DNA of 64,000 bases from a virus, in the IMG/VR virus record IMGVR_UViG_3300045256_000653, positions 1 to 64,000 of that record, one strand, 5' to 3'. Below the pieces are notes generated by a model. That model was not told the DNA's origin, made no database searches, and saw only the letters and a list, made by a program, of their open reading frames with translations. Shown one piece after another: positions 5,685-61,324 of this stretch (position 1 is its first letter; every line of letters begins with the position of its first letter). The position numbers and the translations under genes are program-made.

Positions 5685-5899
5685 GGCTAGAACACCTAGC
5701 AGGACGGATCGACGTGTCAATCCTTTGGATCGTACGCGAGAAGGAAGTCCGAGAAGGTGTCGCACCACTCGCCGGTGCTCAGCGTCTCTGGATACCCATG
5801 GGGTCTTGCTCGTGCCGCTCGGCATACCACAAAGCGAACTTGGCGAGGAGGTCCTCTCGACGGGCGAACGCTTGAAACTCCGTGATGCTTAGGTCCATG

Positions 5900-6520
5900 T
5901 CAGCTCTCCACCAGCTTTTGGCCTTCGACTGCTCCATGGATTGCGATCACGCGATCGATCCACGTCTGGGTCTTTGCTTTGGCCCGAATGATTTCTTTCC
6001 TTGTCCCGAGCTTTGCAACTACACCCTCAGAAGTGACCCCTTCGATCTGCCCCTGGCGTACGAGGTCGATGTAGCCTCGGGTCCAGTTCACACGGCCGAG
6101 GAAGCGGGCCGTGGGCACCTTGTCTTCGAAGAGCTTCCGGAATTCGTTCGGCGGCAGGATCTCGTCTCCTACGGCGACGTCGAACAGCGTGACGAACTTG
6201 GGGTCGTCGGGCTCGTGAAAGCCGGCGAGGCTCTTCTCGCCCCAGAACTCGTAAAACGCCACGAGCTGATCGAGTCTCTCATCTCGCGCAATCTTGGCTA
6301 GGGGTTCCGCCAGCACTTCCTCGAACAGCTTCGGTGCGATGGCGCAGTAGGGATTGGTGTCGTCCACGAGCGTGTGGCGCTTGCCATGCTTGTACCACCC
6401 GCGCTTTCGGTTCCATTCCGACCGCATCGAGTTTCCGTCGAGCTTGTCGAACACGTAGGCGTTCGGGATCTCGCGGAAGGCTTGGCCCATGGCCCGTGGA
6501 ATAGAGGGGTACTCTTTCAA
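5900..6520 (-). CDS. ATP-dependent RNA ligase (stand-alone nucleotidyltransferase domain)
   Basis: N-terminal YPSI, motif I DKLDG, FYEFWG, LFDV, EGVV and AKAK. Confidence 0.8.
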   Translation of the reverse strand: MKEYPSIPRAMGQAFREIPNAYVFDKLDGNSMRSEWNRKRGWYKHGKRHTLVDDTNPYCAIAPKLFEEVLAEPLAKIARDERLDQLVAFYEFWGEKSLAGFHEPDDPKFVTLFDVAVGDEILPPNEFRKLFEDKVPTARFLGRVNWTRGYIDLVRQGQIEGVTSEGVVAKLGTRKEIIRAKAKTQTWIDRVIAIHGAVEGQKLVES

Positions 6521-9500
6521 TCGGCGCCGTCCGTGAGCATTTTCCAGAGCTGCTTTCCGATCGACATCCCAGCAAGGTACTCGTCCTCACTGACGCCGGC
6601 GGCTTGAAGCGCGGACTCGGGGTCCAGACCATCGGTCGAAATGCTAACCGCGACCTTCTTCATGAGCAGATCGTAGAGTTGCTGCTGAAGCGTGTCCTTG
6701 TAGACCGGGAAGTGAATTTTGCTAGGCAACGTTTGACCGATGCGATCGACGCGTCCGATTGCCTGCCGGAAGATGATGGGGTTGCAGGCCGGATTCTCCA
6801 TCCAGATTTCTGACGCGAAGTGAACGAGGTTGTTGAGACCCGTTTGGATGGCCACTGGATTGGTCACGAGCACGCGCCTGTTCGGACGAACGACTTCCCG
6901 ATCGATCCAATCCTGACGCTTGCCCGTAGAAACCTTGTCCGCATAAAGGATCGGGACCGCCACATTTGTGTGTTGCGAGATGAGCCGAGCAAGGCGCGGC
7001 AAGAGCGCAACGTGCCAGCAGAACACCATCACGTTGCGGCCCTCAGCAAGCTCTTTCTCGACGAGAGACAGCATCCATTCCTCTTTCGGAAGGATCGTGT
7101 CGAGCGGAAGGCCCGGCTGTACAGCGACTAGTTGGCTTCCAACAGACTCCGGGTACCGAATCTCGTAATCGCCGCCCTCGACGTTGCCAACATCGCACGT
7201 CGCACGGTCGAGGTAGCTGGGAAGCTCCGCGAGCTGACCCCAGAGTCGGCCGGCAAGATCCGGCTGGAATTGGTCTTTGCGGATCTGGGCCACAAGGGCG
7301 TCTTGCAGCTTGCGGAAGCGGCTCCTCAATTCATCGTCGGCTTCGATCGCATGCGTGAATTGCGAGCAGGGAGGAAGGTCGATCGCGAGATCGGTCTTGT
7401 GGAGGGTGACCGCGAACGGGAGAAGATGACGCAGGAGGAACAGCGGTAGGACGCCAGGGGCGTTGCCGATGACGCGCTCCGAACGGGTCACGCGATCGGA
7501 CATCGAGCCGAACTCGACGACCTCGCCCGTTTCCTTGTCCTTGTCCTCGACGACACGCTTACGGTAGCCGTATCGATCGATGAACTTCTGGCGCTCGTCG
7601 CGCTCGAATTCGAGTCGGAACTCCGGCGACAGCGCCCACATGTTCGTAAAGAGGCTTTCCGCGTAGCCGTTCATGATCGAACCGGTCATGAGCACGGTCG
7701 GAATTCCAAGGGACGTGAGACGGTGGGCCGATCGTTCTTGGGCGGAGCCATCCGTTGCGTACTCGTGGCCTTCATCGAGCACGAGGAAGTCGAAAAGGTC
7801 CGGGTGATACTTCACGATGTGCCGGGCAAGCGCGACACGGCGCGGCTCGGGAATCGCATCGAAGAGGTACTCGCCGCATTCCGGCCCCCAAGAGACCGAT
7901 CCGATCCTCCCGATGCACACCAAGGCGGCAAGGGCAGCCTTCAAGCTGTAGCGGGGGGTGTCGTCGCCGAGCACGAGCTTGCCAGATGCCCACGACGCGG
8001 AGTAAGGACCGATCTTCATTTGCTGGCCGCCCGATTGGATTTGCTCCAAATCGTGAGCGAACGGGGTCCACGGATTGTAGTAGGCGCTCGTCGCGGTTTT
8101 CTTGGCTTCCTGCACGTACGCCGCTTGTCGCGGATCGCCAGGCTTGAGCATCAAGATCAGGTCTTTTTCCAAGTTGGTGCCGTACGAATAATGCTCCTGT
8201 CGGACTTGAAGCGCAGTACGAAGAATGCGCTCGTCATCGCCAGCCGCATGGAGGATCATGACGATCGCTCGCACGTAACGGTCGCGATCTCCGTAGCCTT
8301 CCTTGTAGAGGGCCACCACCTTTTCGAGAATCTCGTCGAGGTCCCCGATGGGAAGGGGAGAGAATTTGGGAACGTCCTTGTCGGCCGCCTTTTTCGCGAG
8401 ACTTTCGAGCATCTTCGTTTGGAATCGATTCCGGAGAAGACCTCCAATGCTCGGATCCGTGGGCGCGTACGGAGCGAGGTGGGTGGCGAGCCGGAAAGCG
8501 GTCCGCGAAAAGTCATCCTTCAAAATCAACGCCTTGTGCTCGCACCGAGCGCGCTTCTTTGCGAGATCAATTTGGGGGGTCGGCATACCGCACTTCGGGC
8601 AGACCGGGCCGCACCCTTCCCAGCCGTGCGTGAGCTTGGCCGTTTCACGGGAGAGGATAGAGACCACGAAATCACTCTTGTCCTCGGAGAGTTGATCCAG
8701 ATCTTCGACCGACGTGAGAACCTTGACCTTCGCGTCCGGCGAAATCGCCGCGATCTCGTTGGTCCACGACTTGAGAAGGTGCGGCGGACAGAGAACGAGC
8801 ATGCGACGAGCGCCAATCGTACGAGCCGTCATCGTTGCGACGGTCGATTTACCCGACCCGATCTCGCCGAGGAGGATTCCAGCCTTGTGCTTTCGCTTGC
8901 GCGCCGTTGCTTTGGGTCCGCCGAGGAGCTTGACCAGCGCTCGAACCGCGTGCGACTGCGCCGTGAAAAGCTGGCGCGGTGATTCGGCGACCGTGATGCT
9001 ATCCGCATCACGACGGGGGTCGTAAAGGATGGGGCACTGGCGCTCCATCACTTGCATCATGCTATCGCCGTAGTGCTTGATGAGATCGGCGACGCCCATT
9101 GACGCGACGTCCTTGGCTTTCGATTCCTCGATGCCCGTGCGAAGCGTATGGTACTTGTGCGTCGAGAGGTCGAGCACCGTCGTGACGAGCTTGGGTTGCT
9201 GCACTTGGACAATCGCTTTGACGCTACCATCCTTTGCGTGACGTTCTTCGACGGTCTTGTACTCGCGATCGAAGACGCCCTTCACGAGTAGCGGCGGGAG
9301 CTTGGTTCGGCGCCCGGACGGTTCGAGACGCGCGCCGTTGAAGAGTCCCGAGGCAATGCCCGCCGCAATGTGAGCCGGGCGCGGGGGCGTAGCGACCGGA
9401 TAGCAGCGAAGAAGCATGTCTTGGACCGGAAGTTCTGGGATGATGCCGTGGACCGGCACGAGGGTGCCGCCACGCGTGGTCTGCATCCAAGGCTTGCACT

Positions 9501-15165: not shown

Positions 15166-17622
15166 TTACTCGTAGGTGACTTCGAGGCGTGCGTTGCTGA
15201 GGGTGGCAGCATCGGTCCCGCCGCCACCGGTAATCCAAACGCGGACCGAGTACATCTTGTTGTCTTTCAGATTGCCGGCGGCAGCGCCGAGCGTGAGCGT
15301 CGCGCTGACCTCCGAAGGGCCAGCGTTCGTTGTTGTGAGGCTCGTGCCGGTCACGGTCTCAGCATCCGTCTCGTTGTACAGATCGACGTGCGCCGTACCG
15401 GCCGTAGTTTCGAGCGTTGCCTTGAAACGCACTGTCCTGTTGAGCGCGCCGAGCGTCGAGGCGTAGCGGGATGTGAGAACAATCCTGGACGCGGCCCGTT
15501 GGGGCGTCGTCGTGGTGTTGCTCACTGCATTCGCGTCGAGGACCAGCTCGTTGTAGACGAACGGCGCCGTGTTCGGGAACGACGTCGGTGTCCACGCCGA
15601 ACCGTTCCATCGGAGCAAGTCTCCAGTTGACGGGACACCCGCACCCACCGCGTGCGTCTGCAAAGCTACGACGGTAGCGTTGTTCGTGGTGCCGGTGAGG
15701 TCACCCCCGACGACGGTGGGCCCGCCGCTTCCGCCAACGGGCTGGCGAGCGTAGTGGCGGTACTTCGCCCGGAGGTACGCTTCGACGCGCGAGCACTCCT
15801 CGGTCGTGAGAGCACGATTGAAGACGATCACCTCGGCCCAAGAGAAGGCGCCTGCTGTAGCGCCCGCGCTGTCCGCGCCGATGGCGAAGATGTCGTTCGT
15901 GGTTCCGGTTCCCGGATCACCCGTCGAAACGCCGTTGGTCGTAGCGAACTGCGTTCCGTTCATGAACGCAACGTGACCCGCGTGCGTGCCGTCCATCGAG
16001 ACGCGGATCGTCTTGGGAGTGCTACCGAAGGCGCCCCACGTGCCGTTTTCGTTCCAGGTGGAGGAACCCGTTCCGTTTCGGTTGCCCGCGAAGATTGCTG
16101 GGGTTGCTCCGAAGAGGTAGTCCTGCACGGCTCCGCGCGTCCAGAAGTATTTGCCGGCGACCGACAGGCCAGTGGACACCATGAAGACCGTGAACGTCCC
16201 CAGGGTAAAGGCCGTGGTGGCCAAGAAATCGTCAACGCCGTCGTGCGTGATCGCCGGATAGCCAGAGAAGGCGGCCGAGTTCAGAGTGAGCGACGGTTGT
16301 TTTGTTGTGGTGAGCTGGTTCAGGTGGTGGCCATTACCGCTCTGGTCGGCTACCTGCGAGAGGTTGCCCGTCGTGATGTCGCGCGTGAGCCCGGTGTCAC
16401 TCTTCCACCATGCCGTGAGCCCCGTGATGTTCGAGGGCATCTCGACACGTTCGCCTTCGATCGTGATGAAGCCCTGGACTGGAATCGAGCCAGCCGCCGA
16501 GGTGTCGAGTGCGAACGTCTGTCCGAGATAATTCGATGGCCCTTGGCACTCGATCATCTCGAAGAGGAGCGGTGCCGTTGTGAAGACGATCGATTTCGGG
16601 GTCGCCGAGATGGATGTCGTGTCCCATCCTTGGGCGTGGCAACGTTCGAGCTTGAGGTGATCGACCTGGGCCGCCAGGCGCATCGCGCGAACGCCACCGA
16701 AGGCCGCCTGGTATGTGAAGGTGACTTCTTCTAGGACCAGCGAACGGACAGGGCTGTCCACTCGAATGCCGTCGCCGCTTCCTGGAGTCGGGCAGTTGAA
16801 GTAGCAGCGTTCGAGCTTGATGTGATCGAACGAGGGTTGATGGAACCCCGCCGCTTTGATCCACACCTGACCTTGGAGGGCCACCTCATCGAAGAAGCAG
16901 TCGCGGATGATCGTGCTTCCGACCGGGTGCTGTCCCGGGAGAGGATCTGCGACATGCCCACTGAGGAGGATCCACGCCTTGTTGGCACCAATCGTCTTCG
17001 AATACGAGACGCCAAGAAACGAATCGAAGTCGTCGAAGCGGACATTCTCAATGACCGATTCTTGTGCACCGACGACGAGCACGCCGCAGTCACTCACAGC
17101 CGCAGCGCAGCAACCGTGAAACTGCATGTTGCTGACGCGTGCGTGAACGGCGTCAATCCCGAGTGCTCCGGTGTCGAGAGACTCGGTTCGGATGCCCCAG
17201 AACGACATGTTCTCGGCTTCCCAAGATTTTCCGCTCAGGTAGAAGGCCGAGGCCGCATCGAGACCCGAACCGGACGGAGGGTCGCCGATGACAGTGAGAT
17301 TGCAGATCCGTCCACGTGCGTTCTCGTTCTGGAGAAGGCACATGTGGTGCCCCTTGTCCAGACTCGGAAGCTGCATCTTGATGACTGCCCCGTTTCCTTC
17401 GAGGCTGATGTATGCCGGGCCGTTCGAAGCGAGGAAGTCCGTCGAGACAAAGGATACCCAATTCCAAACGCCGCCATCCCTGGGGAAGGGGATGTGTACC
17501 GTTGATCCGCCGACCGTCGTCGCAGAAGAGAGCGCAGCACCAACACCGATGCCGATGTCCGCTTGGGTCCCCCCAAATTTGCGAACGTCAAAGACCTCGA
17601 TGCTGTTCGACTTGTTGCTCAT
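15166..17622 (-). CDS. Tail spike/fibre: beta-helix plus LamG/ConA-like domain
   Basis: N-terminal VFDVRKFG, then AWWKSD..DQSGNGHHL..EVIVFNRALT..VEAYL LamG-like motifs. Confidence 0.7.
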   Translation of the reverse strand: MSNKSNSIEVFDVRKFGGTQADIGIGVGAALSSATTVGGSTVHIPFPRDGGVWNWVSFVSTDFLASNGPAYISLEGNGAVIKMQLPSLDKGHHMCLLQNENARGRICNLTVIGDPPSGSGLDAASAFYLSGKSWEAENMSFWGIRTESLDTGALGIDAVHARVSNMQFHGCCAAAVSDCGVLVVGAQESVIENVRFDDFDSFLGVSYSKTIGANKAWILLSGHVADPLPGQHPVGSTIIRDCFFDEVALQGQVWIKAAGFHQPSFDHIKLERCYFNCPTPGSGDGIRVDSPVRSLVLEEVTFTYQAAFGGVRAMRLAAQVDHLKLERCHAQGWDTTSISATPKSIVFTTAPLLFEMIECQGPSNYLGQTFALDTSAAGSIPVQGFITIEGERVEMPSNITGLTAWWKSDTGLTRDITTGNLSQVADQSGNGHHLNQLTTTKQPSLTLNSAAFSGYPAITHDGVDDFLATTAFTLGTFTVFMVSTGLSVAGKYFWTRGAVQDYLFGATPAIFAGNRNGTGSSTWNENGTWGAFGSTPKTIRVSMDGTHAGHVAFMNGTQFATTNGVSTGDPGTGTTNDIFAIGADSAGATAGAFSWAEVIVFNRALTTEECSRVEAYLRAKYRHYARQPVGGSGGPTVVGGDLTGTTNNATVVALQTHAVGAGVPSTGDLLRWNGSAWTPTSFPNTAPFVYNELVLDANAVSNTTTTPQRAASRIVLTSRYASTLGALNRTVRFKATLETTAGTAHVDLYNETDAETVTGTSLTTTNAGPSEVSATLTLGAAAGNLKDNKMYSVRVWITGGGGTDAATLSNARLEVTYE

Positions 17623-52133: not shown

Positions 52134-52209
52134 GGCCCCATCGTCTAACGGTTCAGGATGCCGGCCTTTCAAGCCGAGAATACGGGTTCGATTCCCGTTG
52201 GGGTCACCA
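52134..52209 (+). tRNA. tRNA-Glu(TTC)
   Basis: Cloverleaf with CCA encoded. Confidence 0.9.
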
Positions 52210-55127: not shown

Positions 55128-55289
55128 GATCGCGCCCAGCAACCCGTGAAGCACACAAGCATCCCGCAAGGGATATGCAGGTTCGAATCCTGCTCCCCTC
55201 ACTTCTACGAGGGGATGGCGGAATTGGAAGACGCACTGGTATAAGGGACCAGCCGAAAGGCAGACTGCTACACACCCTCGGGCGCGATC
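55128..55289 (+). ncRNA. Y-RNA-like RNA A: circularly permuted tRNA-Leu(AAG)-like body on the conserved stem module
   Basis: Order is T arm, 3' acceptor, linker, 5' acceptor, D arm, anticodon arm. It is closed by GATCGCGCCC-AG / CT-C-GGGCGCGATC and carries ACAAGC. Confidence 0.8.
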
Positions 55290-56134: not shown

Positions 56135-58012
56135 ATGGCAAACGAGAATCTTGGACCCGCCGAGCGGATCATCAACTCTCTGCTCGCGTACACGGACCAC
56201 ATGGTCCACAACCGCCCGGGCGTGGTCATCCCGGATCGCCGCTTCAACACCGGCGTGCGCTGGCAATTCGTCACGCACAAGGAGGAAGGCGGCCAAAAGG
56301 TCGTCTACGCCCTCACGAAGGTGGGCAAGAAGACGACGAGGACCCGCCTTGGTGTGATGCAGCCGGATCGTAGCGTCGTCGAGAACGGCGCGAAGATCGG
56401 CGATTACCGCCCGGCCGGATACAACCGCGAGGCGGCTGCCTGGATGTACCGACAGGTCGCCGAGGTGTGGAAGCTCGACAACGAGTTCGCGGCCCGCTGG
56501 GCCTCGTACGCGTTCAAGAACGACAAGAACCGCGACCTCAAGGTCATTCTCTGCGCGTTCATGCTCGTTCAGAGCCGCCAAGGTGATCCGGTCAAGGGCG
56601 CCGATGGCAAGGTCGAATTCTTCGACGACGACTTCCGTGAGGTCGGTGAGGCGATGATCCTCAGCGACGAGAAGGGTGTCGAGCACTTCGACGCCAAGCT
56701 CCTCATCCGGGTGCGCGAGATCCTCTCGCTTCCGGAGATCGCGACCATCAACCGGGAACTCGGCTTCGGGCGCTCGACGCGCAAGGCGCCGCTCGGTCGT
56801 TGGGAGAAGGCGGTCACGCGGTGGCTCCAATACCGGGAGCGCAACCCGAAGATGCTCGAAGGTCTCGTCAAGGCGGGCCTTCGGAACAAGGTCGTGTCGC
56901 TCGCTCAGCAGGTCGGCTACAAGCCGGACTCGCCGAACTTCTACCGGATCCTCCGGTGGGAGCAAAACCAGGCGAAGGACGGTCACCGCCAGCTCGCGAT
57001 CGGCGAGGCAGTCGCTGCCGGGGAAACCTGGGAGGGCCTCACCGAGGAGCAGGTCTGCCAGCGCATCATGAAGGACAAGCCGAAGTGGAACCGTCTCGCG
57101 GTCATGCTCCCCAAGAGCACCGGGTTGACGAGGGCCATCATGGCAGCGGCGATCGAGGCGGGTTCCGTCTCGAACAAGGAACTCATCATCCTTTCGCCGA
57201 CGCTCGAAGAGCTTGGCCTTCTCCAAGTTCAGAACATCCGAGAGCGTTGGGAGCGTGCGCAGCGTGAGGCGGAAGACACTCGCGCGGCCAACGTCGCTCA
57301 ACGCATGAAGTCGAAGGAGGCGCAAGAGAAGCTCCAAGAGGCAGCCGACGTCGCGGTCCAAAAGGCCGTGGCCGAGGTCGTCAAGGGGATGCTCGTCTAC
57401 GTCTGCATCGACATCTCGGGATCGATGACGAACTCGATTCCGACCGCGAAGCAGTACATCGCGCAGTTCCTCCAGGGTTTCCCCCCGGAGCAGCTCGTCG
57501 TGTGCGTCTTCAACACGGTCGGACGCATCGTCACCATCAAGAGCCCGTCGAAGGCGGGCGTGGAGAATGCGTTCGCCGGCATTCAGGCGGGTGGTGGCAC
57601 CGATCACGGATCGGCCATTCGCACGATTGCCAAGCACCGCATGCCCACGGCGGACGAGGATGTCGTGATGATCTTCATCGGTGACGGTGGAGAGATCAAG
57701 ACGTTCGACTCCTCTCTGGCGGTCGATCACATCAAGCCGATGGCCTTCGGGTTCCTCCAGCTTCCTGGAGACAACTCGGGGTGCATCACCAACACGGCGG
57801 CTCGGCTGGGTATCCCGTGCTTCAACATCGACGAGGGAATCTTCGCGGACCCGTATGCGATTCCGCGTACGCTCCGTGCCCTCATCGCTGCAACCCCGGT
57901 GGGCCAAGCTCCCCGGACGCAGGCAGCTCCGCGCGTGTCTCTCGTGGACACGATTCAAAAGACGGCGCTACTCAAGAAGCCGGCATGGGCAACCGTGGTC
58001 GCAACAGCGTAA
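56135..58012 (+). CDS. Ro60/TROVE-like protein: helical N-domain plus C-terminal vWA
   Basis: vWA MIDAS motifs IDISGSM, GGGTD and FIGDG follow ~410 aa of basic helical sequence. Flanked by Y-like RNAs. The vWA call is firm and TROVE is inferred. Confidence 0.7.
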   Translation: MANENLGPAERIINSLLAYTDHMVHNRPGVVIPDRRFNTGVRWQFVTHKEEGGQKVVYALTKVGKKTTRTRLGVMQPDRSVVENGAKIGDYRPAGYNREAAAWMYRQVAEVWKLDNEFAARWASYAFKNDKNRDLKVILCAFMLVQSRQGDPVKGADGKVEFFDDDFREVGEAMILSDEKGVEHFDAKLLIRVREILSLPEIATINRELGFGRSTRKAPLGRWEKAVTRWLQYRERNPKMLEGLVKAGLRNKVVSLAQQVGYKPDSPNFYRILRWEQNQAKDGHRQLAIGEAVAAGETWEGLTEEQVCQRIMKDKPKWNRLAVMLPKSTGLTRAIMAAAIEAGSVSNKELIILSPTLEELGLLQVQNIRERWERAQREAEDTRAANVAQRMKSKEAQEKLQEAADVAVQKAVAEVVKGMLVYVCIDISGSMTNSIPTAKQYIAQFLQGFPPEQLVVCVFNTVGRIVTIKSPSKAGVENAFAGIQAGGGTDHGSAIRTIAKHRMPTADEDVVMIFIGDGGEIKTFDSSLAVDHIKPMAFGFLQLPGDNSGCITNTAARLGIPCFNIDEGIFADPYAIPRTLRALIAATPVGQAPRTQAAPRVSLVDTIQKTALLKKPAWATVVATA

Positions 58013-58024
58013 GGAGCAAATCAG

Positions 58025-58996
58025 ATGGGATGGAGGGACCTACTTCAAACAGGCGACGAGACCCTCGTCTCGCCGTGGGTTGGAGGCAGGTCCCTTCGTT
58101 CCGGTCCTCGCACCTGGACGATCGACGGCCGACTCCCTCGGGAGATGGGCTGGTACTCGTTCAAGCTCAACGGACGCCGGGCCACACTAAATGGTTCGGC
58201 CGATCCGGCGAGCGAGGGTTTCAGAGACGTGGTGCGGGGTTACCTGGTCGGCGACCGGCTCGTTCCGGACGGCGCTCGGGTCAACCCCGATCCCACCAAG
58301 ATCGCAGAGGCGACGGAGACCGTTCTCCTCGTTGACCGTGGGCTCGATCGATTCGTGCGGATTGCGGCGGGACGCCTCTTTGATGAGGGCCCGCTCATCT
58401 TCATGAACCAGGAGATGCCCGTTGGCCCCGAGGATGCGGTCAGCAACGCCTACCTTCGCCGGCTTCCTTCAGTGAGTGACATCGCCGGAGTGACCCCGGC
58501 CCTCGAAGCCGCCTTCCGCATGGAAGTGTGGCAGCGAGAAGAAGCCGAACGTCGGCGCCTCGAATTGGAGCGCCAGCGTCGGGAAGAAGAGGAACGCAGG
58601 CAGCGTGAGGAACGGCGCGAGCAGATGGCGCGCCAGCTCGGAACCGGTACCGGACGGCGGGAGATGGCCCTCGTGGACTTCGCCGAAGCCGCTCGTGCTG
58701 CGCTCCGGGTTGGAGGTGCCGAGTATCTCGACCACCGGGCATCGTACCGGCCGGGCGAGATGGTCGTCACCTTCCGGATGCTCAACCGAGCCTTCATGTG
58801 CACGTGCGACGAGAAGACGCTTCGCATCATCGATGCTGGCGTTTGCCTCGGGCACGGGGACGAGAGAGGGGACACGCGGTTCACTCTCGAATCCTTGCCG
58901 GCGGTGATCAACGAAGCTCACCGCACGCATCGATTGGTCGTTCTTCGTCACGTCGGCGATCAGGACGAACCTGATTGGAGGAACGATGACGATTGA
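58025..58996 (+). CDS. Putative E2-like (UBC-fold) protein with N-terminal domain and coiled coil
   Basis: C-terminal IIDAGVCL followed by the TLESLPAVI helix resembles the E2 G-x-x-C-L site. Operon context supports it. Confidence 0.5.
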   Translation: MGWRDLLQTGDETLVSPWVGGRSLRSGPRTWTIDGRLPREMGWYSFKLNGRRATLNGSADPASEGFRDVVRGYLVGDRLVPDGARVNPDPTKIAEATETVLLVDRGLDRFVRIAAGRLFDEGPLIFMNQEMPVGPEDAVSNAYLRRLPSVSDIAGVTPALEAAFRMEVWQREEAERRRLELERQRREEEERRQREERREQMARQLGTGTGRREMALVDFAEAARAALRVGGAEYLDHRASYRPGEMVVTFRMLNRAFMCTCDEKTLRIIDAGVCLGHGDERGDTRFTLESLPAVINEAHRTHRLVVLRHVGDQDEPDWRNDDD

Positions 58997-59393
58997 AGCT
59001 GGAGTTGTTGTGGGGCGCGACGGCGAGGAGGCTGTCTACTGGCATCTTCCTCCCAACAGGAACGTCGTCGCGCTCCCCGACAGCCGAGATCTTTGGGACG
59101 TCTTCTGGGAGAACAGGGATCGCATCTCTGGGTTCGCGCACAGCCATCCCGGGCTCGGCGTTCCCGGCCCCTCCTGGGAAGACCTCACGACATTCGCCGC
59201 CGTCGAAGGCGGTCTGGGTCGTCGCCTCAAGTGGTGGATCACGAGCATGAATGCCGTCTCGGTCCTCACGTGGAAGGGCCCGGGCAAGTACGACTACGAG
59301 CTGACCGTGCTCGACAAGGAACCGTCATGGATTCCGGAGCTACGGCGTCTCTCGCAGAACGAATCAACACCAAACGAGGAGCAGATACGATGA
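58986..59393 (+). CDS. JAB/MPN+ metallopeptidase
   Basis: N-terminal E, then AHSHP....PSWED (HxHx7-8Sx2D). Confidence 0.88.
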   Translation: MTIEAGVVVGRDGEEAVYWHLPPNRNVVALPDSRDLWDVFWENRDRISGFAHSHPGLGVPGPSWEDLTTFAAVEGGLGRRLKWWITSMNAVSVLTWKGPGKYDYELTVLDKEPSWIPELRRLSQNESTPNEEQIR

Positions 59394-59665
59394 CGATTCA
59401 GGAAAACGAGGCCCAGGTGAACATCACCTGGAACGGAACGAACTTCGAGCTTCCGGACCCGGTTCTCTTCGAGGCCGCAGACGGAGACCTCAAGCAGTGG
59501 GCGGCGGAAGCGATTCGCACGGGCTCGATCCCGGGCTTCGCGGCCGATCCGGCCGTGGACCTCCGGAATCACATCGTGGACCGCTTCCCGGCGCCGGCTC
59601 AGGCCGCGCCCGGCCAGCGTACCCACAACCTCATCCAGATTCGCCCGAAGACGGCATTCGGATGA
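59390..59665 (+). CDS. Ubiquitin-like (beta-grasp) protein
   Basis: 91 aa, beta-beta-alpha pattern, ends IRPKTAFG, ATGA-coupled between JAB and E1. Confidence 0.75.
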   Translation: MTIQENEAQVNITWNGTNFELPDPVLFEAADGDLKQWAAEAIRTGSIPGFAADPAVDLRNHIVDRFPAPAQAAPGQRTHNLIQIRPKTAFG

Positions 59666-60237
59666 AGACCGTGGTCATCGTCGGAGTCGGGGCGCTGGGT
59701 TCACACCTCGTGCCCTTGCTCCGGAACGTGGACGCCTCCGTCAAGGTGATCGACTTCGATCGCGTCGAGGCGAAGAACGTCCTCAGCCAGTTTCACGGCA
59801 AGCCGAATGTCGGGAAGCCCAAGGTGCTCTCTCTTCAGAGCACGATGAACTTCCTCTTCGGCAAGAAGATCGAGACCGTTCCCCACAAGCTCGTGGAGAA
59901 CAACGCCACCGAGCTTCTCGGCAAGGCTGATCTCGTCATCGACTGCCTCGACAACGGGGCAGCTCGCAGGATCGTCCAGGGCTTCGTTCGCAAGAACAAC
60001 ACCCCCTGTTTGCATGGGGCTGTCGATGCGAACGGCAGCTTCGGACGCATCGTTTGGGACGAGACGTTCGCAATCGACGACGAAGACAAGGCCGGTGCGC
60101 CCACCTGCGAAAACGGCGAGCACCTCACGTTCTTGTCGATCGTCGCTTCCTACCTGGCGCACGCGGCCAGGGAATTTCTCGTGAAGAATCGCAAGCTCGG
60201 GTATCAGGTGAGCCCGGGTGGGACTATTCTAACGTGA
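59662..60237 (+). CDS. E1/ThiF-family adenylating enzyme
   Basis: VGVGALGS, DFDRVEAKN..Q, K and DCLDN..R motifs, with candidate catalytic Cys in APTCE. Confidence 0.92.
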   Translation: MKTVVIVGVGALGSHLVPLLRNVDASVKVIDFDRVEAKNVLSQFHGKPNVGKPKVLSLQSTMNFLFGKKIETVPHKLVENNATELLGKADLVIDCLDNGAARRIVQGFVRKNNTPCLHGAVDANGSFGRIVWDETFAIDDEDKAGAPTCENGEHLTFLSIVASYLAHAAREFLVKNRKLGYQVSPGGTILT

Positions 60238-60298
60238 CCGCGCTTTTTTCTTAGCACCACGACCGGCGTCGGTGTAAACCAACGCCGGAAGTAACTCT

Positions 60299-60439
60299 GA
60301 GGGATATTGGCCGATGGCAGGCCGCGTGACGGTAACTCACGTGCATACGCACAATCAGGATTGCACTCTCGGACCTCGCAAGGGGCCCAGCTCCTCGTAG
60401 TCCTTACAAGCTTTCTAGGTTCGAATCCTAGGTCCCTCA
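60299..60439 (+). ncRNA. tRNA-like RNA B (GTA anticodon) with module in the variable loop
   Basis: GAGGGAT/GTCCCTC-A acceptor, CGTGA-CGGTAAC-TCACG, insert AGGATTGC..CTCGGACC..GGCCCAG..GTAGTCCT-TACAAGC, and T arm. Confidence 0.8.
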
Positions 60440-60442
60440 CTA

Positions 60443-60610
60443 CTTCGCGCCCAGCAAAACCCGAAAGACCTTACAAGCAAAGTATGCAGGTTCGAATCCT
60501 GCTGAGCCCACCAACGGAGGGTCAAACCTCCGGGGCCCATCGTCTAACGGATAGGACACTCGTTATTCAAACGAGCAATCGCAAACAGGTTTCTCAACTC
60601 GGGCGCGAAG
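60443..60610 (+). ncRNA. Y-RNA-like RNA C: circularly permuted tRNA-Glu(TTC)-like body
   Basis: CTTCGCGCCC-AG / CT-C-GGGCGCGAAG closure. T arm comes first, then internal ACCA, a linker hairpin, and a Glu-type D arm. Confidence 0.8.
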
Positions 60611-60662
60611 GAATTTTTTTCTGTCAGACCCATCTCGGGTCGTCGTCTCTGGAAACATCAAT

Positions 60663-60795
60663 GCCGATCAAGGGCCGTGGGGCCCACCTCTTTGTTAAAG
60701 AGCAACAAATCCTGCATTCACCCCTCGGACCTCGAAAGTGGTCCAGCCCCAACGAGTGCATACAAGCTTGCCAGGTTCGACTCCTGGGATCGGCG
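60663..60795 (+). ncRNA. tRNA-like RNA D (GTT anticodon) with module in the variable loop
   Basis: GCCGATC/GATCGGC-G acceptor, TGCATTC..CTCGGACC..GGTCCAG..GAGTGCA-TACAAGC. Confidence 0.8.
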
Positions 60796-60797
60796 CT

Positions 60798-60927
60798 GAG
60801 GCACCCAGCCTCCCGTAGTGCTCACACGCGAATAGCTCACTCTGGTAGAGCATCTGTTTCGAACACAGAAGGTCACGGGTTCAAATCCCGTTTCGTAACC
60901 AACCAGCATTACAATCTCGGGTGTCTC
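60798..60927 (+). ncRNA. RNA G: tRNA-like body (CGA anticodon, 60826-60901) enclosed by the module through its acceptor ends
   Basis: GAGGCACCC-AG..GTAGTGCT [tRNA] AGCATTAC..CT-C-GGGTGTCTC, followed by a T-tract. Confidence 0.75.
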
Positions 60928-60935
60928 TAATTTTT

Positions 60936-61063
60936 GCGGGTCAGGGCCGTGGGGCCCACTTTCCTCTCCAAGGAACAAACCAGCATGCGCCCTCGGGCCT
61001 CGAAAGGGGCTCAGCTCTCAAGCGTGCTCACAAGCTCGTCAGGTTCGACTCCTGAGACCCGCT
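60936..61063 (+). ncRNA. tRNA-like RNA E (TCC anticodon) with module in the variable loop
   Basis: GCGGGTC/GACCCGC-T acceptor, AGCATGC..CTCGGGCC..GGCTCAG..GCGTGCT-CACAAGC. Confidence 0.8.
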
Positions 61064-61126
61064 CTAACCCGTCATCGAGGCCGGCTGTCCCGCAAGGGCC
61101 TACCGACCTCGAGGCGCGTAAATTAT

Positions 61127-61273
61127 GGGGATGTTACAGAGGGATGGACCCTCGCCTGCCCACGAAGCAGGAGCGAAAGCTCAACCCAGGATCAAACCTC
61201 GGATCTCTTCACCGGGATCCAGCCCCCTCTCGGTCCTTACAAGCCCTCGGTTCGAATCCGAGACATCCCCCCA
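61127..61273 (+). ncRNA. tRNA-like RNA F (ACG anticodon) with module in the variable loop
   Basis: GGGATGT/ACATCCC-C-CCA acceptor, AGGATC..CTCGGATC..GATCCAG..GGTCCT-TACAAGC. Confidence 0.8.
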
Positions 61274-61324
61274 TCTTCTTCCCTCGCAGCTAGCCACCGC
61301 GAGGTGATCGTTTCGCACCGTTAT

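What the first reader, a model, noticed from the sequence alone, without database searches (positions are those of the whole stretch)
60443..60610. Permuted tRNA-Glu-like RNA with an internal encoded CCA, potentially a two-piece chargeable RNA
After the T arm, TGAGCCC-A-CCA (60503-60513) is followed by a linker hairpin (CGGAGG-GTCAAA-CCTCCG). Then come GGGCCCA, a Glu-type D arm and a TTC anticodon. Removing the linker would give a two-piece RNA with a free CCA end, analogous to two-piece tmRNA maturation. Its terminal helix is nearly identical to that of RNA A, 5 kb away.
Basis: partly seen in the sequence, partly recalled or inferred. Interest (0 to 1): 0.75.

Follow-up and report, generated by a model that had tools for sequence, protein, structure and literature searches.

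The report
Permuted tRNA-like Y-type RNA in phage
This is a real, conserved RNA gene of huge phages in which a tRNA-Glu-like body is written in circularly permuted order and closed by a long helix, much like bacterial Y RNAs; its built-in CCA suggests, but does not prove, that it is cut into two pieces with a free tRNA-like end.

Summary
60443-60610 (+) folds as: terminal helix, T arm, 3' acceptor strand, A-CCA, linker hairpin, 5' acceptor strand, Glu-type D arm, and an anticodon-like arm with loop UAUUCAA.

It is not a one-off. A covariance model finds 51 permuted relatives in related huge-phage contigs, and 27 of 29 base pairs show compensatory changes. About 100 non-permuted siblings carry the same module (invariant ACAnGC and CUCG) as a closed extra arm.

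The RNA cluster lies right after a conserved operon: a Ro60-like (TROVE-like fold plus vWA) gene, an unknown gene, JAB, Ubl and E1.

N73-CCA follows the acceptor strand in 17 of 51 members. That is 17 of 34 with a linker of 7 nt or more and 0 of 17 with a closed loop. Background is 1.5%; real tRNA genes of the same phages have it in 39%.

Best reading: a new variant of the YrlA-type Y RNA. Cleavage by RNase P and trimming to CCA is inferred from Mycobacterium smegmatis YrlA, where it is already published.

Glu charging is unsupported (A33 instead of U33). This member has no single-stranded leader, so it may stay closed. The scan's first-stage notes had already flagged the surrounding system on this same window.

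The parts
60443..60454 (+). 5' strand of the terminal helix: CUUCGCGCCC, plus AG that pairs with CU at 60598-60599.
   Evidence: In the family this is helix 1: 9 of 9 pairs show compensatory changes.
60462..60469 (+). CCCGAAAG. This is a CGAA-type motif in the 5' internal loop. It differs at one position from the YrlA motif GNCGAAN0-1G.
   Evidence: It lies in an insertion that only RNA B carries in alignment A2, so it is not a family feature.
60472..60478 (+). UACAAGC. This is the family-invariant unpaired motif ACAnGC, just 5' of the T arm.
   Evidence: A31, C32, A33, G35 and C36 are invariant in 35 sequences.
60486..60502 (+). T arm: GCAGG-UUCGAAU-CCUGC.
   Evidence: RF00005 partial match, 14.4 bits. 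Covariation.
60503..60513 (+). 3' acceptor strand UGAGCCC, discriminator A, and the encoded CCA.
   Evidence: N73-CCA is present in 17 of 51 relatives.
60514..60532 (+). Linker: A plus the hairpin CGGAGG-GUCAAA-CCUCCG. It abuts G+1 with no single-stranded leader.
   Evidence: The other 12 hairpin-linker members have 5-9 nt leaders.
60533..60558 (+). 5' acceptor strand GGGCCCA, then UC, then the Glu-type D arm.
   Evidence: 17 of 18 identical to the phage tRNA-Glu(UUC) at 52134.
60559..60575 (+). Anticodon-like arm: CUCGU-UAUUCAA-ACGAG. UUC is at 60566-60568 and A33 at 60565.
   Evidence: After virtual un-permutation ARAGORN calls tRNA-Glu(uuc).
60587..60610 (+). 3' strand of helix 2 (AGGUUU-CUC), the invariant CUCG with bulged C60600, and the 3' strand of the terminal helix GGGCGCGAAG.
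   Evidence: C156, U157, C158 and G159 are invariant.
60614..60620 (+). A run of seven T after the terminal helix, a probable 3'-end or terminator signal.
   Evidence: A T-run of 4 or more follows 19 of 51 relatives, against a 3.6% background.
60290..60442 (+). Upstream sibling RNA of normal topology (E-type). It ends in GUCCCUC-A-CUA directly before RNA B, so its 3' processing would create RNA B's 5' end.
   Evidence: The tandem of an E-type RNA followed by a permuted RNA recurs in many loci.
55128..55289 (+). RNA A, the permuted Leu-type sibling. Its acceptor stem is closed by an 8-nt loop and it has no CCA.
   Evidence: 103.7 bits.
56135..58012 (+). Ro60-like protein: an N-terminal helical-repeat domain with a TROVE-like fold, plus a vWA domain with a MIDAS motif.
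58025..60237 (+). Four co-directional genes: an unknown 323-aa protein, Prok-JAB, a 91-aa Ubl-like protein ending in FG, and a ThiF/E1-like protein.
   Evidence: The synteny is conserved in almost all of the 63 loci.

Best explanation
RNA B is one member of a large family of tRNA-derived structured RNAs. The family was not found in Rfam or in the papers searched, and it is specific to a clade of huge phages.

Each member is a tRNA body carrying one conserved extra-arm module. The module is a bulged helix with invariant CUCG and ACAnGC. In RNA B the gene is circularly permuted, so the open end of that extra arm forms the RNA's 5' and 3' ends, and the acceptor stem is joined by a linker. This is the architecture of YrlA-type bacterial Y RNAs.

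The RNA cluster is genetically tied to a Ro60-like protein and to a JAB/Ubl/E1 operon.

Proposed mechanism, with shown and inferred steps marked:
- Shown: the fold, the conservation and the synteny.
- Inferred: the RNA is transcribed together with the upstream sibling.
- Inferred: its 5' end is made by 3' processing of that sibling, and its 3' end by the terminal helix plus the U-run.
- Inferred: the module helix docks on the Ro60-like protein, while the L-shaped tRNA-like part recruits tRNA-binding factors.
- Inferred from Mycobacterium smegmatis YrlA and from the CCA statistics: in the linker subclass, RNase P cuts before G60533 and the trailer is trimmed to CCA60513. This would give two pieces of 71 nt and 78 nt held together by the acceptor stem, the module helices and the D/T-loop contacts.
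For: Fold and family:
- Fold z = -4.7.
- 35-sequence alignment: 26 of 29 RNAalifold pairs show compensatory changes.
- The covariance model finds 51 full-length members at 56-134 bits. 96.7% of cells are paired, against 65% after shuffling and 35-47% after sliding.

CCA:
- NCCA occurs in 17 of 51 members, and only in those with a linker of 7 nt or more.
- In the earlier set of 36 members it was 13 of 36, against a 1.5% background (p about 5e-15). Real tRNA genes of the same loci have it in 39%.
- The 3' trailers of the normal-topology siblings mostly read C-Y-R, as do many of the window's own tRNA genes by eye.

Protein partner:
- The whole-protein Foldseek search gives Ro60/TROVE chains as the top 9 hits, E 7e-7 to 2.5e-5, over more than 500 alignment columns.
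- The language-model neighbours are TROVE clusters at 0.84, which is a lead only.
- The vWA domain is a Pfam hit; D426, S428 and S430 are invariant in the family.

Synteny and literature:
- The RNA cluster starts 150-700 nt after the E1 gene in almost every locus.
- YrlA RNAs are described as resembling circularly permuted tRNAs. M. smegmatis YrlA is cut by RNase P and gains CCA in vivo (PMC4201824; bioRxiv 10.1101/312249).
- Phage Ro60 binds phage Y-like RNAs (PMC12135203).
Against: - The Rfam YrlA model does not match RNA A or RNA B even at E up to 10. It does match Y-like RNAs of another huge phage.
- The family's invariant motifs (CUCG on the 3' strand, ACAnGC) are not the YrlA GNCGAAN0-1G motif.
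- The protein is not recognised as TROVE by Pfam or by a profile search of PDB sequences.
- Foldseek on the N-terminal domain alone finds nothing significant.
- The synteny is tightest with the E1 gene, not with the Ro60-like gene.
- Against cleavage of this particular member: G-1 is paired inside the linker hairpin and there is no leader.
- CCA has drifted to ACCC, ACCU or ACUC in a close group of relatives.
- A third of the members have closed acceptor loops.
- There are no expression or end-mapping data.
Confidence: 0.55

Rival explanations
1. It is the same RNA family, but this member stays in one piece. The linker hairpin simply lengthens the closed acceptor arm, as in the long-armed YrlAs reported for some cyanobacteria. 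ACCAA is a 5-nt bulge, and the CCA is a relic inherited from a CCA-encoding tRNA-Glu ancestor.
For: - RNA B has no single-stranded leader, and the hairpin stacks directly on G+1.
- All 12 other hairpin-linker members have leaders of 5-9 nt.
- 17 of 51 members have closed loops of 6 nt or fewer.
- The phage's tRNA-Glu(UUC) encodes A-CCA, and the 5' half of RNA B is 17 of 18 identical to it.
- CCA decays in a close group of relatives.
- Most YrlA RNAs are predicted to stay closed.
Against: - NCCA is found in 17 of 34 linker-type members, against 39% of real tRNA genes and a 1.5% background. A relic would be expected to decay below the tRNA rate.
- The 3' acceptor strand and T arm of RNA B are not those of the tRNA-Glu. 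They match RNA A instead. The CCA therefore sits on the part that is not Glu-derived.
Confidence: 0.27
2. It is a true permuted tRNA-Glu gene. The terminal helix and module would be excised and the ends ligated, for example by a phage RtcB. The acceptor linker would then be removed, giving a canonical decoding tRNA, as happens for the permuted tRNA genes of Cyanidioschyzon merolae.
For: - After virtual removal of the module and re-ordering, ARAGORN calls a cloverleaf in 33 of 36 members, with RNA B called as Glu(uuc).
- RtcB is encoded in 3 of 5 related huge-phage genomes. In one it lies about 3 kb upstream of the Ro60-like gene.
- The trailer and leader look like those of real tRNA genes.
Against: - There is no bulge-helix-bulge motif. 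The helix carries a single bulged C.
- A33 replaces the universal U33. Across the family U33 is present in only 21 of 36 seven-nt loops, 8 of 51 members have 8-nt loops, and A34 is common.
- The module has invariant unpaired motifs, which suggests a retained functional element.
- A canonical tRNA-Glu(UUC) already exists 8 kb upstream.
Confidence: 0.08
3. It is non-functional debris: a rearranged tRNA pseudogene produced by recombination within the tRNA array.
For: It lies in a dense tRNA array, and its parts resemble two different neighbours, RNA A and tRNA-Glu.
Against: Compensatory base changes occur in all five helices across 51 homologues from many phages. There are invariant motifs and conserved synteny.
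Confidence: 0.02

Closest known systems
YrlA-type bacterial and phage Y RNAs (Rfam RF02553), especially Mycobacterium smegmatis YrlA
   Same: - A long helix formed by the 5' and 3' ends.
- The order T arm, acceptor stem-loop, D arm, that is, a circularly permuted tRNA-like domain.
- A YUAC motif just 5' of the variable region and T arm.
- The gene lies within a few kb of a Ro60-type gene on the same strand.
- M. smegmatis YrlA has a 7-bp acceptor stem, is cut by RNase P and ends in CCA, giving two halves bound to Rsr (PMC4201824).
   Different: - The Rfam model gives no hit.
- The invariant motifs are CUCG and ACAnGC, not GNCGAAN0-1G.
- A complete 5-bp anticodon-like arm is present.
- CCA is fully encoded and followed by a trailer hairpin.
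- Siblings of normal topology and of a third topology exist.
- The partner protein is only structurally Ro60-like.
- A JAB/Ubl/E1 operon is linked.
Permuted tRNA genes of Cyanidioschyzon merolae, some green algae and Thermofilum pendens
   Same: The 3' half lies upstream of the 5' half. The acceptor ends are joined by a short linker. The termini pair in a helix.
   Different: Those genes use a bulge-helix-bulge motif and the splicing endonuclease, and they yield canonical tRNAs. Here there is no such motif, the anticodon loop is non-canonical, and the helix carries conserved motifs.
Two-piece (permuted) tmRNA
   Same: The gene is permuted, and processing exposes an internal CCA, giving a two-piece RNA that can be charged.
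   Different: There is no tag reading frame and there are no pseudoknots. ARAGORN and Rfam give no tmRNA match at this site. The body is Glu-like, not Ala-like.
Class II tRNAs and tRNA-Sec (tRNAs with a long variable arm)
   Same: After processing, the module would project from the variable-arm position of an L-shaped tRNA body. RNA A and its relatives also keep a Leu-type D arm and a short variable hairpin.
   Different: The arm is about 55-65 nt and has its own conserved motifs. The anticodon loops do not match the identity of the tRNA body.

Membership tests
YrlA / Y RNA-like (RF02553) | Scores at or above the Rfam gathering threshold of 69 bits. | tested here: not met
   No YrlA hit overlaps RNA A or RNA B at E up to 10. 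As a positive control, another huge phage gives 57.8 and 31.8 bits.
YrlA / Y RNA-like (RF02553) | Encoded within about 4 kb of a Ro60 (TROVE) gene on the same strand. | tested here: inconclusive
   RNA B starts 2.4 kb after the stop of the 56135-58012 gene, on the same strand. That protein is Ro60-like by fold only, not by Pfam TROVE.
YrlA / Y RNA-like (RF02553) | The motif GNCGAAN0-1G near the 5' end. | tested here: not met
   RNA B has CCCGAAAG, with one mismatch, inside an insertion private to it. The motif is absent from the family consensus.
YrlA / Y RNA-like (RF02553) | A tRNA-like domain in the order T arm, acceptor stem-loop, D arm, closed by pairing of the 5' and 3' ends. | tested here: met
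YrlA / Y RNA-like (RF02553) | Bound by the Ro60 protein. | not testable with these tools
   This needs a gel-shift assay or co-immunoprecipitation.
Permuted tRNA gene (spliced to a canonical tRNA) | A bulge-helix-bulge motif at the paired termini. | tested here: not met
   The terminal helix has a single bulged C and an asymmetric internal loop.
Permuted tRNA gene (spliced to a canonical tRNA) | A canonical 7-nt anticodon loop with U33 and R37. | tested here: not met
   The loop is UAUUCAA, with A33. In the family U33 occurs in 21 of 36 seven-nt loops.
Two-piece tmRNA | A tag reading frame and pseudoknots, with detection by ARAGORN or by Rfam tmRNA_permuted. | tested here: not met
tRNA (RF00005) | A contiguous cloverleaf scoring at least 29 bits. 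| tested here: not met
   Only the T arm matches, at 14.4 bits. ARAGORN calls nothing here.
Ro60 / TROVE protein (the neighbouring gene) | A match to Pfam PF05731. | tested here: not met
   None of the 120 listed homologues carries it.
Ro60 / TROVE protein (the neighbouring gene) | A helical-repeat ring domain followed by a vWA domain with a MIDAS motif. | tested here: inconclusive

The most novel reading that the evidence does not exclude
All three gene topologies may fold into one object: a tRNA body with a free CCA end that carries a protein-binding extra arm. RNA B would then be a natural two-piece tRNA, split at the tip of its extra arm, that is actually loaded at A76. The load would be either glutamate, added by GluRS, or the C-terminal glycine of the neighbouring Ubl, added by the adjacent E1-type adenylating enzyme. 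The second case would be RNA-linked Ubl chemistry. The Ro60-like protein would serve as the platform.
Probability: 0.12. Interest if true: 0.9.

Novelty: new variant of a known kind. Interest (0 to 1): 0.62.

Why it matters
Y RNAs that mimic tRNA are known, but what the tRNA-like half is for remains open.

This phage clade offers dozens of natural variants of one design: closed, CCA-ended with a processing cassette, non-permuted, and attached through the acceptor stem. They carry diverse anticodon-like loops. They are tied both to a very divergent Ro60-like protein and to a ubiquitin-like conjugation operon.

That makes several questions directly testable. Is a free, possibly charged, CCA end part of Y-RNA biology? 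Which factor reads the tRNA-like half? Do huge phages use such RNAs against host RNA-directed defences or for RNA quality control?

It also shows that current Rfam and Pfam models miss a widespread RNA and protein pair.

Tried and rejected
- ARAGORN and the Rfam gathering search find no gene at 60443-60610. Permissive Rfam searches give only a T-arm fragment and chance hits.
- Sequencing runs: no RNA holder was listed, only DNA runs labelled hot-spring, microbial-mat or soil metagenome. Processing therefore could not be observed.
- Neighbouring protein: Pfam, PHROGs, and phmmer and profile searches against PDB sequences gave no TROVE or Ro60 hit.
- Foldseek on the N-terminal 415 aa alone gave nothing below E 0.05.
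- The ESM Atlas gave nothing for the 323-aa protein.
No close orthologue was found. Only L021:7405-7573 and L023:6170-6309 share the Glu-type D arm.
- Hypotheses considered and dropped: tmRNA, a tRNA with a group I intron, a self-cleaving ribozyme, and an archaeal-type spliced intron. None has a supporting motif or model hit.

Full report
**Context**

The window is the first 64 kb of a 78-kb IMG/VR virus contig, estimated 17% complete. Its nearest named relative is the Caudoviricetes 'Virus Rctr197k'. From 50.3 kb onward it carries an array of 25 tRNA genes. The finding lies in a 590-nt stretch between an E1-like gene and the next detected tRNA. No credible protein-coding gene lies there; the ORF lister reports only mechanical frames that overlap the RNAs.

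**The observation**

- The 168-nt stretch folds as a 10-bp terminal helix extended by two pairs across a bulged C.
- Inside it are a second helix, a canonical T arm and a 7-position acceptor helix (6 pairs, with C5-A68 mismatched).
- The 3' acceptor strand is followed by A-CCA and then a 6-bp linker hairpin.
- After the 5' acceptor strand come a D arm and a 5-bp arm with a 7-nt loop.
- The fold has -60.4 kcal/mol and z = -4.7; no shuffle of 200 is as stable.

The 5' acceptor strand plus D arm is 17 of 18 identical to the phage's own tRNA-Glu(UUC) at 52134. The loop UAUUCAA differs from that tRNA's CUUUCAA only at positions 32-33. 'Glu-like' is therefore accurate, but the universal U33 is replaced by A.

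The 5' part (terminal helix strand and T arm) is instead almost identical to RNA A at 55128-55289. RNA B is thus a mosaic of two neighbours.

**It belongs to a large family**

I fetched 63 loci through the neighbouring 625-aa protein. Most come from contigs of 200-620 kb.

- T loops outside annotated tRNAs are abundant there.
- Pattern analysis and then a covariance model give 51 full-length permuted members at 56-134 bits. There is a clear gap to the partial tRNA matches.
- RNAalifold predicts the terminal helix, T arm, acceptor stem, D stem and anticodon-like stem. 26 of 29 pairs show compensatory changes.
- On the 51-member alignment, 96.7% of cells pair. The figure is 65% after shuffling and 35-47% after sliding the partners. 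27 of 29 pairs show double changes. That alignment was fitted to the model, which inflates the pairing figure somewhat.
- The invariant unpaired positions are ACAnGC just before the T arm and CUCG just before the 3' strand of the terminal helix.

About 100 further RNAs carry the same two motifs in normal tRNA order. In these the helix is closed by a hairpin at the variable-arm position. Four of them flank RNA B, at about 60290-60442, 60663-60800, 60936-61066 and 61128-61275.

Permuted members typically begin directly after N73+3 of such an upstream sibling. 19 of 51 are followed by a T-run of 4 or more, against a 3.6% background. RNA B shows both features.

**The CCA**

- N73-CCA follows the 7-nt acceptor 3' strand in 17 of 51 members.
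- Split by linker length: 0 of 17 with a loop of 6 nt or fewer, 10 of 17 with a 7-13-nt linker, and 7 of 17 with a linker of 14 nt or more.
- In the first set of 36 members the count was 13, against a background triplet frequency of 1.5% (p about 5e-15). Canonical tRNA genes of the same loci encode CCA in 39%.
- Among long linkers the usual design is N73 + CCA (or CUA, CCG, CUG), then a stable hairpin, then a single-stranded leader of 5-9 nt. This resembles a tRNA trailer plus the next tRNA's leader.

Where the acceptor stem is not closed by a small loop, its 3' end is therefore conserved like a real tRNA 3' end. That argues that it becomes a free end.

Three caveats apply. The counts are not phylogenetically independent. 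In one close group the sequence reads ACCA, ACCA, ACCC, ACCU and ACUC. RNA B is the only hairpin-linker member with no leader, because its hairpin stacks directly on G+1. That could hinder RNase P.

**The anticodon-like arm**

If the module is removed in silico and the halves are re-ordered, ARAGORN calls a cloverleaf in 33 of 36 members. RNA B is called Glu-uuc and RNA A Leu-aag.

The loops are not those of a decoding set.

- R37 is present in 36 of 36 seven-nt loops, but U33 in only 21 of 36.
- 8 of 51 members have 8-nt loops, and A34 is common.
- The 'anticodons' disagree with the identity of the tRNA body. Three Leu-type bodies carry AAG, UGG and UUG.
- The loop UAUUCAA recurs on a different stem in L017:4847-5005. 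The A33 variant is therefore probably not an accident.

**The neighbouring protein and the synteny**

The 625-aa protein has a Pfam vWA domain. Its family has more than 1,600 members at about 60% identity. None of the 120 listed homologues is annotated as TROVE.

Evidence on its fold:

- Whole-model Foldseek ranks Ro60/TROVE structures 1-9 over more than 500 columns.
- The N-terminal 415 aa modelled alone (pLDDT 84.7) gives no significant Foldseek hit.
- Language-model neighbours are TROVE and DUF2828 clusters at 0.84, which is a lead only.

I read this as a very divergent Ro60-like protein, with moderate confidence.

tblastn shows the order Ro60-like gene, 323-aa protein, JAB, (Ubl), E1 in almost all loci. 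The RNA cluster begins 150-700 nt after E1, even where other genes separate E1 from the Ro60-like gene. RtcB is encoded in 3 of 5 related huge-phage genomes. In one it lies about 3 kb upstream of the Ro60-like gene.

**Comparison with what is known**

- Chen et al. 2014 (PMC4201824) defined YrlA RNAs. These are Ro60-linked Y RNAs whose effector half is a tRNA-like domain in the order T arm, acceptor stem-loop, D arm, closed by the 5'/3' stem.
- The same paper showed that Mycobacterium smegmatis YrlA, which has a 7-bp acceptor stem, is cut by RNase P and carries CCA in vivo. Both halves remain bound to Rsr.
- Wang et al. 2018 (bioRxiv 10.1101/312249) describe most YrlAs as resembling circularly permuted tRNAs with closed acceptor loops.
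- Phage Ro60 with phage Y-like RNAs is documented for phiLo and others (PMC12135203; PMC7824862).

What differs here:

- The Rfam YrlA model does not match RNA A or RNA B. It does match Y-like RNAs of another huge phage.
- The conserved motifs are different.
- A full anticodon-like arm is present.
- The CCA and a processing cassette are encoded in the gene.
- The same module occurs in three gene topologies.
- A Ubl/E1/JAB operon is linked.

**Verdict**

- The feature is real and conserved, and the architecture is confirmed.
- It is best filed as a new variant of the Y-RNA (YrlA-like) kind, not as a member of RF02553.
- Processing into two pieces with a free CCA is plausible for the linker subclass and about even odds for this member.
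- Charging with glutamate is unsupported.
- True maturation to a decoding tRNA is unlikely.

The scan's first-stage notes on this same window had already described the surrounding system. My tests agree with them. They add the family-wide statistics, the covariation, the structural test of the protein and the link to the literature.

Noticed in passing
window 60290-60442, 60663-60800, 60936-61066, 61128-61275: Four RNAs of about 135-150 nt in normal tRNA order. Each has a 7-bp acceptor stem, a long D stem with a small loop and a 7-nt anticodon-like loop. Each carries the same CUCG / ACAnGC module as a closed arm of about 60 nt at the variable-loop position. About 100 relatives occur in the fetched loci, and 26 of 101 end in N-CCA.
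   Followed up: partly
window 60798-60927: The ARAGORN 'tRNA-Ser(cga)' at 60825-60901 has a short variable loop and a frayed acceptor stem. It is enclosed by GAGGCACCC-AG ... CUC-GGGUGUCUC. This is the same module attached through the acceptor ends, a third topology. Similar cases occur in other loci, for example L007 around 16440-16540.
   Followed up: partly
window 58025-60237, and all loci: A conserved four-gene block follows the Ro60-like gene: an unknown 323-aa protein with a coiled-coil middle, Prok-JAB, a 91-aa Ubl-like protein ending in FG, and a ThiF/E1-like protein. The RNA cluster always follows E1. This suggests a functional link between Ubl activation and the tRNA-like RNAs.
   Followed up: partly
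loci L004-L066, and window tRNA genes: 3' trailers of the normal-topology tRNA-like RNAs that lack CCA mostly read C-Y-R (CUG, CUA, CCG), which are transition neighbours of CCA. Many of the window's own tRNA genes read the same by eye.
   Followed up: no
L144 2233-2517 (- strand; 423-kb phage contig): Two tandem RNAs match Rfam YrlA at 57.8 and 31.8 bits. The one I read, at about 2381-2517 (31.8 bits), has a GACGAAUG motif, UUUACA before the T arm, and a Glu-type D arm. These are canonical-style Y RNAs inside another huge phage's tRNA array.
   Followed up: partly
L004, about 5870-7135 (+): An RtcB RNA ligase gene lies about 3 kb upstream of the Ro60-like gene in one complete 377-kb relative. 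This is reminiscent of the Salmonella rsr-yrlBA-rtcBA operon.
   Followed up: no
window 60263-60288: A hairpin CCGGCGUCGGUGUAAACCAACGCCGG containing CGGTGTA sits just before the first tRNA-like RNA. An earlier first-stage note proposes CGGTGTA as a phage promoter motif.
   Followed up: no
L001 5454-5541 (Virus Rctr197k): An apparent tRNA-Ser(uga) lies between two annotated tRNA-Ser genes. It is not annotated in the GenBank record and ARAGORN does not call it.
   Followed up: no
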